Assembly (NCBI GenBank): GCA_965261245.1
Contig: OZ253446.1
Coordinates: forward strand, 2,069,587-2,133,586
DNA length: 64,000 nucleotides
Reading direction: 5' to 3'
From: Spirochaetia bacterium
GTDB taxonomy: Bacteria; Spirochaetota; Spirochaetia; G963692905
In this document: positions 13,629 to 13,735 of the stretch, one piece after another
Position numbering within the stretch: the first letter of the stretch is position 1
How the letters are laid out: each line of letters starts with the position of its first letter
Notes under the pieces: model-generated
Database searches by the model: none
Seen by the model: the letters and a program-made list of their open reading frames with translations, nothing else
What the model was told of the DNA's origin: nothing
Position numbers and translations under genes: made by a program

Positions 13629-13735
13629 TTCGACAAGCTCAGGGCAAGCCTCGACAAGCTCAGGGCAAGCTTCGACAAGCTCAGGGCAAGCTTCGGCAAG
13701 CTCAGGGACCGCCCTTCGGCAGACTCAGAGACCAC
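13629..13735 (+). repeat. Tandem array of ~21-bp units (TCGACAAGCTCAGGGCAAGCY), about 4.5 copies
   Basis: Direct tandem repetition visible in sequence; related array of about 2.5 copies at 43083-43145 in opposite orientation. Confidence 0.7.

What the first reader, a model, noticed from the sequence alone, without database searches (positions are those of the whole stretch)
13629..13735. 21-22-bp tandem arrays attached to repeat type 3 with different copy numbers
Units TCGACAAGCTCAGGGCAAGCY occur about 4.5 times at 13629-13735 and about 2.5 times (inverted) at 43083-43145, both directly after a type 3 repeat and before a gene start. Variable short tandem repeats in promoter-proximal positions can modulate expression by changing spacing.
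Basis: seen in the sequence. Interest (0 to 1): 0.5.

Follow-up and report, generated by a model that had tools for sequence, protein, structure and literature searches.

The report
Strain-variable tandem mini-repeats near promoters
Two short tandem-repeat arrays just upstream of gene starts are real and differ in copy number between closely related strains, and their 21-24-base unit is shared almost letter for letter by uncultured bacteria of about 13 phyla, where it even sits in frame inside essential genes.

Summary
There are 5 head-to-tail units (3 near-perfect 21-mers and 2 degenerate) at 13629-13750(+), and 3 units at 43143-43079(-). Each array lies between the 3' edge of a ~155-nt GC-rich 'type 3' repeat and a gene start.

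Contigs of close relatives (92-99% identity) from one metagenome carry 0, 1, 3 or 4 units at the pyruvate-kinase locus, against 5 in the window. At the second locus they carry 5 units against 3.

The arrays lie upstream of the core promoter, not inside it. At locus B a -35-like hexamer starts 21 nt beyond the array. Nothing shows an effect on expression.

The unit is not private to this genome. Tandem dimers of TTCGRCARGCTCAGGGCAAG occur in 54 loci of 45 species-representative genomes from about 13 phyla, and single units occur in 39 viral contigs. Arrays with a 24-nt period sit in frame, read as PSTSSGQA, inside IF-2, enolase, glutamate synthase and other conserved proteins. I found no paper, Rfam family or Pfam family for it.

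Best reading: a hypervariable minisatellite module of a dispersed, apparently mobile mini-repeat family. Copy number most likely changes by slippage, and any regulatory effect is unproven.

The parts
13469..13623 (+). Type 3 repeat, copy A. A GC-rich ~155-nt module whose 3' end (GGGGGTAGCGCCC) abuts the array.
   Evidence: Alignments. The hairpin at alignment columns 27-50 keeps pairing through compensatory changes in 6 pairs across 10 copies.
13621..13628 (+). C8 homopolymer joining type 3 to the array. It is C3 in the relatives that have 0 or 1 unit.
   Evidence: haplotype table.
13629..13691 (+). Three near-perfect 21-nt units, TTCGACAAGCTCAGGGCAAGC (the second starts with CTCG).
13692..13750 (+). 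Two degenerate terminal units (TTCGGCAAGCTCAGGGACCGCCC and TTCGGCAGACTCAGAG...) plus tail.
   Evidence: The same terminal units are present in L095, and the first of them in L096.
13751..13790 (+). AT-rich block directly before the pyruvate kinase ATG (13791). It is nearly identical in all five haplotypes and is the presumed core promoter region.
   Evidence: No sigma-70 consensus was found by the scan.
43147..43300 (-). Type 3 repeat, copy B.
43079..43143 (-). Array B: CCC + TTCGGCAGGCTCAGGGCAAGCCC + TTCGGCAGGCTCAGGGCAAG + TTCGGCAAGCTCAGAGGAC. The relatives L098 and L099 have 5 units here.
43030..43058 (-). Promoter-like site TTGGCA-17-TATCCT with a TG extension, 6 nt upstream of ATG 43023 (leaderless-type arrangement).
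   Evidence: 1 found against 0.1 expected. That this is the real start is inferred.
28893..29055 (+). Type 3 repeat, copy C, with no unit array. It lies upstream of a thioredoxin-like gene (29134-29637).
43346..43360 (-). Single unit core (CTTCGACAGGCTGGG) inside another ~90-nt repeat upstream of type 3 copy B.
43435..43449 (-). Single unit core with a GGCT/AGCC stem (GGGGGCTTCGACAGGCTCAGCCACC).
46754..46768 (+). Single unit core with a GACT/AGTC stem, followed by a 23-nt tandem (46755-46810).
46613..46701 (-). Unit of the GGCT/AGCC type, split in its loop by a hairpin repeat of about 60 nt. Relative L098 has 4 tandem 23-nt units (CTTCGACAGGCTCAGCCACCGGG) at this site.

Best explanation
The arrays are a hypervariable minisatellite module. 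They are head-to-tail copies of a 20-23-nt unit whose core is T-TCGRCARGCTC-A, usually flanked by short complementary arms. The unit belongs to a dispersed family of mini-repeats.

In this spirochaete-like genome the array sits at the 3' boundary of a structured GC-rich intergenic repeat (type 3), between that repeat and the core promoter of the next gene. Whole units are gained and lost quickly on an evolutionary scale. The most likely cause is slipped-strand mispairing or unequal recombination between the direct repeats; this step is inferred, not shown. As a result, co-occurring close relatives carry 0 to 5 units.

The array lies outside the -35/-10 region. It therefore does not tune promoter spacing, and any effect on expression would come only from changed upstream context.

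The unit itself behaves like a non-autonomous, selfish or mobile sequence. Nearly the same 21-24 nt occur as arrays in many bacterial phyla and in viral contigs. They occur in non-coding DNA with any period. Inside genes they occur only with a 24-nt period, and most often in the tolerated frame PSTSSGQA.
For: Shown in the window:
- The arrays are real and far above chance.
- At pyk the segment between type 3 and the AT-rich block is 3, 25, 88, 94 or 130 nt, corresponding to 0, 1, 3, 4 or 5 units, in five haplotypes.
- At locus B it is 65 nt (3 units) against 109 nt (5 units), with otherwise identical flanks.
- A third site has 4 units in L098 and a single interrupted unit in the window.
- The relatives are 92-99% identical to the window.
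- The 44-nt difference at B is not a multiple of 3, so array B is non-coding.
- The promoter-like site at B lies downstream of the array.
- Arrays are absent from type 3 copy C, from its orthologue L100, and from a second type 3 copy in L095. They are therefore an optional module.

Shown for the family:
- The dimer pattern gives 54 loci in 45 species-representative genomes of about 13 phyla, with locus GC of 0.34-0.70. By my own calculation fewer than 1e-5 hits are expected by chance in 596 Gb.
- Single units occur in 39 viral contigs with unrelated flanks.
- 24-nt arrays lie in long ORFs, mostly in frame PSTSSGQA, while 22/23-nt arrays lie in short-ORF contexts.
- Arrays fall within or between the Pfam domains of IF-2, enolase, ATP-dependent DNA ligase, a class II aaRS, phosphorylase, glutamate synthase and RluD.
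- A phage protein has a clean 24-nt in-frame insertion relative to its homologues.
- A Patescibacteria enolase has 4 units, against 3 in a 98%-identical relative. Enolases that are only 62-70% identical carry the identical 21 nt at the same codon, and others are empty there.
- Each genome has its own spacer and period subtype, which suggests spread within genomes.
Against: - No mechanism of unit gain or loss, or of spread to new sites, was observed.
- No transposase or reverse transcriptase recurs near arrays in 54 loci.
- The unit is conserved at the nucleotide level across phyla, including at synonymous sites in enolase. This hints at a sequence-specific function that 'selfish minisatellite' does not explain.
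- In the window both arrays point toward a gene start and lie right next to the promoter region, which could reflect function.
- All 54 genome hits are uncultured (MAG or single-cell) genomes, for unknown reasons.
- Tandem arrays were not found in the plasmids of cultured isolates, in cultured phages or in E. coli.
Confidence: 0.62

Rival explanations
1. Regulatory VNTR. Copy number changes the distance or helical phase between the type 3 module, or a factor bound to it, and the core promoter. This would tune or switch expression of pyk and of the 43023 gene, as with promoter-distal phase-variable tracts.
For: Copy number varies between close relatives at both loci. The arrays end 21 nt before a -35-like hexamer at B, and the last unit core ends about 60 nt before the pyk ATG. 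In array A the period is 21 nt, about two helical turns, and the hexamer CAAGCT recurs every 10-11 nt (TRF period-10 row at 13643-13702). Type 3 and array have the same orientation relative to the downstream gene at both loci.
Against: The array is outside the -35/-10 spacer. Array B has 23/20-nt units, so helical phasing is not general. A housekeeping glycolytic gene is an unusual target for a contingency switch. The same unit occurs in coding DNA and in unrelated contexts in many phyla. There are no expression data.
Confidence: 0.2
2. Array of protein-binding sites of the iteron or operator type. Each unit or half-unit (CAAGCT every ~10.5 nt) binds a DNA-binding protein upstream of the promoter.
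For: There is an internal 10-11-nt sub-period in the 21-nt variant. The arrays sit immediately upstream of core promoters. By eye, the GGCAAG-N4-GGGCA part of the TTCGGCAAG variant loosely resembles a sigma-54 -24/-12 element, and the gene after pyk encodes a sigma-54 activator.
Against: The sub-period is lost in the 22-24-nt variants that dominate elsewhere. The alleles with 0 and 1 units (L097, L094) keep intact pyk genes and upstream regions. The sigma-54 resemblance is weak (no TTGC at -12) and absent from the TTCGACAAG variant. No cognate protein is known.
Confidence: 0.05
3. RNA-level element. Type 3 plus array is transcribed, as a leader or small RNA, and the units act as structured or protein-binding RNA modules.
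For: Type 3 has a hairpin maintained by compensatory changes. Single units elsewhere have covarying 4-nt stems around a conserved 11-nt loop: CCCT/AGGG, GGCT/AGCC, CGGT/ACCG, GACT/AGTC, GGTT/AACC and CACT/AGTG.
Against: As RNA the arrays fold worse than shuffled controls (z +1.9, +1.0 and +1.7), and the whole region is unremarkable (z -1.15). There is no Rfam match even at E<=10. At B the promoter-like site lies downstream of the array. Many array units (CCAT/AGGG, CCGT/AGGG) cannot form the stem.
Confidence: 0.08
4. The array is coding, or it is an assembly artefact. The public gene call for 41419-43263(-), 614 aa, runs through type 3 and array B.
For: That exact 614-aa product is on record in the public collection. 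Five of the six frames of the unit are free of stops (read from the sequence).
Against: The relatives differ by 44 nt inside array B, which would shift the frame. A promoter-like site and an ATG lie downstream at 43023. The same arrays, with different copy numbers, appear in several independent contigs and in long chromosome-scale assemblies of other phyla.
Confidence: 0.02

Closest known systems
BOX elements of Streptococcus pneumoniae (boxA-boxB(n)-boxC). From established knowledge, not tested here.
   Same: A modular intergenic repeat in which one short module is tandemly repeated a variable number of times. It is dispersed at many loci, often near gene starts, and copy number differs between loci and strains. 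Effects on neighbouring gene expression have been reported.
   Different: The sequence is unrelated. boxB is about 45 nt and is bracketed by two fixed modules, whereas here the array hangs on one side of type 3 only. BOX is confined to pneumococci and close relatives, whereas this unit occurs in about 13 phyla and inside genes.
MIRU-VNTR minisatellites of Mycobacterium tuberculosis. From established knowledge.
   Same: One repeat family is dispersed over many intergenic loci as tandem arrays whose copy number differs between strains.
   Different: MIRUs are 40-100 bp and genus-restricted. The unit here is 20-24 nt and conserved at the nucleotide level across phyla.
REP/BIME elements and their RAYT transposases. 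From established knowledge.
   Same: They are short hairpin-forming extragenic repeats that occur singly, as inverted pairs and in clusters, and they are targets for insertion of other elements. Here, single units have covarying stems, Sphingomonad replicons carry inverted pairs, and another repeat is inserted in a unit loop at 46613-46701.
   Different: REP sequences are species-specific, and their conserved part is the stem plus a 5' GTAG. Here the loop is conserved and the stem varies. The arrays are head-to-tail rather than alternating, fold poorly and also occur inside genes. No RAYT link was tested.
Rickettsia palindromic elements (RPE), the 'selfish DNA in protein-coding genes'. From established knowledge; the literature was located.
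   Same: A small non-autonomous repeat is inserted in frame into conserved protein-coding genes and tolerated as an extra peptide segment.
   Different: RPEs are about 100-150 nt, palindromic, not tandem, and restricted to Rickettsia.
[quoted passage not shown]
   Same: Tandem, variable-number coding repeats with a punctate distribution over distant clades, attributed to horizontal transfer and shuffling within genomes.
   Different: The PARCEL unit is 25 residues (75 nt) and is conserved at the protein level, in ORFs of unknown function that are often membrane proteins. Here the unit is 8 residues (24 nt), conserved at the DNA level, sits inside housekeeping enzymes, and is equally common in non-coding DNA.
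Promoter-associated phase-variable repeat tracts, for example the TAAA tract upstream of the -35 of Neisseria nadA and poly-G/C tracts in -35/-10 spacers. From established knowledge.
   Same: A variable-number repeat next to a promoter. The nadA type lies upstream of the -35, as here.
   Different: Those tracts have 1-7-nt units with high slippage rates and demonstrated expression switching. Here the units are 20-23 nt, the target genes include a glycolytic enzyme, and no expression effect has been shown.

Membership tests
Phase-variable promoter repeat (contingency locus) | The repeat tract lies within the -35/-10 spacer or overlaps a defined promoter or regulator site. | tested here: not met
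   At B the promoter-like TTGGCA-17-TATCCT (43058->43030) lies wholly downstream of the array, which ends at 43079. At A the AT-rich block of about 40 nt before the ATG is nearly identical in all haplotypes.
Phase-variable promoter repeat (contingency locus) | Copy number varies between strains or within populations. | tested here: met
   Between close relatives, units number 0/1/3/4/5 at pyk and 3 versus 5 at B. Variation within a population could not be tested.
Phase-variable promoter repeat (contingency locus) | Copy number changes expression of the adjacent gene. | not testable with these tools
   No expression data are available.
Modular dispersed VNTR repeat (BOX- or MIRU-like kind) | The same unit occurs as tandem arrays at several dispersed intergenic loci of one genome. 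| tested here: met
   Arrays at 13629-13750 and 43079-43143, and a third array site in relative L098. Single units at 43346, 43435 and 46754.
Modular dispersed VNTR repeat (BOX- or MIRU-like kind) | A variable module is attached to a fixed module. | tested here: met
   Both arrays start at the ..GGGGGTAGCGCCC end of type 3. The type 3 copies C, L100 and L095a lack arrays.
REP/BIME | The unit is an imperfect palindrome that forms a stable hairpin. | tested here: inconclusive
   Single units show covarying 4-nt stems around the loop TCGRCARGCTC. However, arrays fold worse than shuffles, and many array units lack a stem.
REP/BIME | Extragenic location only. | tested here: not met
   All units in the window are intergenic. 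In other genomes the family lies in frame inside genes.
REP/BIME | Association with a RAYT (Y1 transposase) in the genome. | not tested
   Only 64 kb of the 2.34-Mb genome is available. No recurrent neighbouring gene was found in 54 loci.
MITE | Terminal inverted repeats and a target-site duplication. | tested here: not met
   The arrays are direct repeats with no terminal inverted repeats. Empty versus filled alleles (L097 vs L094; L013/L024 vs L015; L105 vs L103) show no clear duplication beyond a possible CC.
Known RNA family (Rfam) | A match to a curated covariance model. | tested here: not met
   Only two tRNAs reach gathering score in the window. Nothing credible appears at E<=10 over 13400-13800 and 43000-43600.

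The most novel reading that the evidence does not exclude
The unit (CC)TTCGRCARGCTCAGGGCAAG(NN) is a previously undescribed, pan-bacterial mobile minisatellite. It is kept nearly identical at the nucleotide level in at least 13 phyla and their phages. It spreads within genomes with genome-specific spacers and changes copy number on the timescale of strains. It colonises essential genes in frame, read as PSTSSGQA, sometimes repeatedly at the same codon. This implies either an unknown trans-acting insertion or templating machinery with very broad host range, or an unknown sequence-specific function. The population sampled in this window, with alleles of 0 to 5 units, would be a natural system in which to catch it in action.
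Probability: 0.4. Interest if true: 0.85.

Novelty: new variant of a known kind. Interest (0 to 1): 0.6.

Why it matters
Locally, the finding gives two or three ready-made VNTR markers that distinguish co-occurring lineages of an uncultured spirochaete-like bacterium. It also gives a natural allelic series (0, 1, 3, 4, 5 units) for testing whether upstream repeat length affects a leaderless-type promoter. In addition, it corrects an over-extended public gene call.

More broadly, a 21-24-nt sequence that is identical in AT-rich Patescibacteria, GC-rich Chloroflexota, Cyanobacteria, Bacteroidota, Nitrospira and viral contigs is hard to explain by vertical descent. It sits in frame inside IF-2, enolase and glutamate synthase. 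If it is confirmed as a mobile or templated element, it would point to an unrecognised mechanism of short-sequence insertion operating across bacteria. It would also be a source of disordered linker insertions in conserved proteins and of spurious ORFs in databases.

Tried and rejected
1. Type 3 core pattern (GCTAGGCATG..GCCAGACGCCGCGGAGT) in genome contigs and metagenome contigs: 0 hits in each. The source lineage is not in those collections.
2. Exact look-up of the window's pyruvate kinase: not on record. This was solved through cluster members.
3. Period-21 dimer in JGI metagenomes: 0 hits. The 21-nt variant appears to be specific to this lineage.
4. A 96-nt synthetic array against plasmids and phages: no match, possibly because of the low-complexity filter. 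A 38-nt query found only single cores. E. coli gave none.
5. HMMER search with 5 x PSTSSGQA: 1866 word-sharing candidates but none scored. Pfam on the five open-frame translations of the unit: nothing significant.
6. Literature searches by peptide strings, DNA strings and keywords: nothing relevant except PARCELs and the RPE/MITE literature.
7. RNA structure of the arrays: rejected, because they fold worse than shuffles.
8. Recurrent neighbouring enzyme gene: none found. The clusters that appeared are related phages and the host proteins themselves.
9. A mistaken fold of 13020-13310(-) is irrelevant.
10. A sigma-54 -24/-12 resemblance seen by eye was judged too weak.
11. Artefact explanations (adapter, chimeric assembly) were rejected for three reasons: the units vary naturally, they occur in long chromosome-scale assemblies, and they are flanked on both sides by the same gene in frame.

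Full report
OBSERVATION

Tandem Repeats Finder gives 13628-13707 (period 21, 3.8 copies, 94% matches) and 43084-43143 (period 23, 2.7 copies, 90%). The 21-mer with up to 3 mismatches occurs 5 times against 0 in shuffles. A looser 15-nt core occurs 11 times against 0.07 expected.

Parsed unit by unit:
- Array A is C8 + 21 + 21 + 21 + 23 + a degenerate unit with tail (13621-13750, plus strand).
- Array B is CCC + 23 + 20 + 19 (43143-43079, minus strand).

That repeat has three copies in the window: 13469-13623(+), 43300-43147(-) and 28893-29055(+). The third copy carries no array. Further single cores lie at 43346, 43435 and 46754. All units in the window are intergenic.

SURROUNDINGS

Array A precedes pyruvate kinase (ATG 13791; Pfam PK/PK_C). 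Array B precedes an ORF on the minus strand. A promoter-like TTGGCA-17-TATCCT with a TG extension sits at 43058->43030, 6 nt before ATG 43023, which is a leaderless-type arrangement. The array ends at 43079, so it lies 21 nt upstream of the -35-like hexamer.

No sigma-70 consensus was found before pyk, but an AT-rich block of about 40 nt abuts the ATG. All three type 3 copies lie between divergently oriented genes.

Type 3 contains a hairpin whose pairing is kept by compensatory changes in 6 pairs across 10 copies. Neither type 3 nor the arrays match any Rfam family.

The window's pyruvate kinase is identical to a protein on a 2,343,434-bp public contig. The next relative is only 56% identical, and the more distant hits are named Spirochaetota. 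Its 90% cluster holds four more sequences. These led to contigs of one ENA metagenome assembly, ERZ26694059, which are 92-99% identical to the window. Neighbouring genes gave contigs for the other loci.

Results:
- At pyk, the segment between type 3 and the AT-rich block is 3 nt/0 units (L097), 25 nt/1 unit (L094), 88 nt/3 units (L095), 94 nt/4 units (L096) and 130 nt/5 units (window).
- At B it is 65 nt/3 units (window) against 109 nt/5 units (L098, L099), with otherwise identical flanks.
- A third site shows 4 tandem 23-nt units (CTTCGACAGGCTCAGCCACCGGG) in L098. The window and L099 have a single unit there, split by another hairpin repeat.

Copy number therefore varies between close relatives. 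The 44-nt difference at B is not a multiple of three, so the public 614-aa gene call that runs through type 3 and array B is an over-extension.

WHAT THIS MEANS FOR THE INTERPRETATION

Unit gain and loss do not touch the -35/-10 region. They only shift the type 3 module in 20-23-nt steps. The 'changing spacing' mechanism is thus not supported in its classical form. A promoter-distal effect remains possible but untested.

As single strands the arrays fold worse than shuffled controls (z +1.9, +1.0 and +1.7). This argues against a structured RNA role.

THE UNIT IS NOT PRIVATE TO THIS GENOME

The pattern TTCGRCARGCTCAGGGCAAG hits 39 IMG/VR viral contigs. The flanks are unrelated, and CCN almost always precedes the match.

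The tandem dimer pattern hits 54 loci in genome contigs. By record titles these are 45 species-representative genomes, all MAG or single-cell assemblies and none archaeal. The phyla are Chloroflexota, Patescibacteria (Saccharibacteria, Parcubacteria, Colwell- and Jorgensenbacteria), Bacteroidota, Verrucomicrobiota, Gammaproteobacteria, Cyanobacteria, Acidobacteriota, Nitrospira, Eremiobacterota, Lentisphaerae, Syntrophaceae, Ratteibacteria and Termititenax. Locus GC ranges from 0.34 to 0.70. By my own calculation the pattern (30 fixed and 4 two-fold bases) should give fewer than 1e-5 chance hits. Several hits lie on chromosome-scale contigs, so this is not a short-read artefact.

Arrays have 2 to 6 or more units, with periods of 22-25 nt. 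Each genome has its own spacer and period subtype.

Period-24 arrays mostly lie in long ORFs and are read as PSTSSGQA. Arrays of 22/23 nt lie in short-ORF contexts. Pfam places the coding arrays within or between the conserved domains of these proteins:
- IF-2 (GTP_EFTU domain)
- enolase
- ATP-dependent DNA ligase
- a class II aminoacyl-tRNA synthetase
- glucan phosphorylase
- glutamate synthase (two arrays in one gene)
- an RluD-type pseudouridine synthase

A phage protein family shows a clean 24-nt in-frame insertion (GPSTGSGQA) where homologues have DG.

In Patescibacteria enolases:
- The locus with 4 units has a 98%-identical relative with 3 units.
- Enolases that are only 62-70% identical carry one unit at the same codon, with an identical TTCGACAAGCTCAGGGCAAGC, although the flanking synonymous sites differ.
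- Others are empty at that codon (LDGT-EN-KSNLGG).

So the nucleotides, not just the peptide, are conserved or were recently acquired.

Around the conserved loop TCGRCARGCTC, single units carry covarying 4-nt stems: CCCT/AGGG, GGCT/AGCC, CGGT/ACCG, GACT/AGTC, GGTT/AACC and CACT/AGTG.

In cultured isolates I found only the core. GCCCTTCGACAAGCTCAGGGC occurs up to 10 times per Sphingobium replicon, and it also occurs in Novosphingobium, Polaromonas and Comamonas. In the two loci read (one Sphingobium, one Novosphingobium) it forms inverted pairs in intergenic DNA. It is absent from E. coli.

No gene family recurs next to the arrays. No paper, Pfam family or Rfam family was found.

MECHANISM

Shown:
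- The arrays exist.
- They gain and lose whole units between close relatives.
- They are optional appendages of type 3.
- They lie upstream of the core promoter.
- The unit belongs to a cross-phylum family that is tolerated in genes only with a 3n period, and most often in one frame.

Inferred:
- Copy number changes by slipped-strand mispairing or unequal recombination.
- The family spreads as a non-autonomous, selfish element.
- Any effect on pyk or the 43023 gene is incidental.

Unknown:
- What inserts the unit at new sites.
- Why its sequence is so conserved.

Rivals, with my estimates: a promoter-distal regulatory VNTR (0.2), a protein-binding array (0.05), an RNA element (0.08), and coding sequence or artefact (0.02).

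COMPARISON WITH KNOWN SYSTEMS

At the level of this window the feature works like the variable boxB module of pneumococcal BOX elements, or like MIRU-VNTR loci. The hairpin singles, the inverted pairs and the nested insertion recall REP/BIME. The in-frame gene insertions recall Rickettsia palindromic elements. The patchy cross-clade spread recalls PARCELs.

It fails defining features of several families:
- MITEs: no terminal inverted repeats and no target-site duplication.
- REPs: not extragenic only, and no conserved stem.
- Classical promoter contingency tracts: not within the promoter.

I therefore file it as a new variant of the dispersed mini-repeat/VNTR kind. The open and more novel possibility is that the family is an undescribed pan-bacterial mobile minisatellite.

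VERDICT

Interest is 0.6: the local VNTR is ordinary, but the family it belongs to is not.

Noticed in passing
window 41419-43263 (-): The public gene call of 614 aa starts at a TTG inside type 3 and runs through array B. Relatives differ by 44 nt within the array, and a promoter-like site precedes ATG 43023. The real product is therefore probably 534 aa.
   Followed up: partly
window 13469-13623, 28893-29055, 43147-43300; L094-L100: The type 3 repeat has a hairpin (GGCGCCGCC-CTTC-GGCGGTGCC in copy A) whose arms differ between copies, and even between orthologous copies of relatives, yet stay complementary. L098 at locus B carries the copy-A version, which suggests exchange between copies.
   Followed up: partly
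window 29056-29074 vs L100 4938-4945: Copy C of type 3 ends in the window with an extra 17 nt, GCCAGACGCCGCGGAGT. This is a second copy of an internal type 3 motif, and it is absent from the relative L100.
   Followed up: no
window 46078-46140 and 46626-46690: A hairpin repeat of about 60 nt (GGTGGCGAATGCACCGCATAGAGAGCGTAGCGAACGTTATGCGGTGCCAACAACCAGA) occurs twice. The second copy sits inside the loop of a unit (GGCTGAGCC^GTCGAAGCC), so one repeat is nested in another.
   Followed up: partly
window 12325-13323 (-); L097 3180-4369 = window 55767-56956: An rve-type integrase/transposase ORF lies just upstream of type 3 copy A in the window but is absent there in L094-L096. L097 instead has, upstream of pyk, a 1.19-kb segment 100% identical to window 55767-56956 (rve_3 gene). 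Insertion sequences are evidently active in this population.
   Followed up: no
window 8300-11300 (-), 26074-28716 (-), 43591-46041 (+), 47200-51000 (+): Large Cys-rich repeat proteins (CxxxLIC-type 32-aa and 58-aa repeats; 96- and 174-nt DNA periods) occur in several paralogues. They include an 85%-identical inverted pair at 27395-28389 / 43789-44783. Type 3 copies B and C each lie upstream of one of these paralogues, pointing away from it.
   Followed up: no
window 24032-24156: A separate 21-nt tandem repeat (6 copies, 90% matches, ACCAACAGACGCATTGATGAC) is unrelated to the unit studied here. It lies in a region that is duplicated at 23905-24675.
   Followed up: no
L093 3396-3632, L066 2746-2983, L007, L073, L017/L032; enolases P0216, P0221, P0235, P0181: Unit arrays in other phyla are often flanked by other short GC-rich repeats (CGCGGATT-, GCAGATT- and CGCAATC-like heptamers and octamers). 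In-frame traces of these (LNADLRG, INADKRR and NPRKSA-type peptides) decorate the same Patescibacteria enolases. A related ..TTCGCAATC.. tandem follows the unit at window 46769-46810. This may be a second cross-phylum mini-repeat family.
   Followed up: no
INPHARED phages: 65 related Pseudomonas phages share a 20-nt exact match (CCTTCGACAAGCTCAGGGCA) in a tail-fibre gene. This is either a single in-frame unit in one phage lineage or a chance match.
   Followed up: no
Genome-contig hits L040-L093: All 54 loci with tandem dimers come from MAGs or single-cell assemblies and none from a cultured isolate. Many lie at contig ends, 15 nt from the end in L047, L048 and L079, as expected where a repeat breaks a k-55 assembly.
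   Followed up: partly
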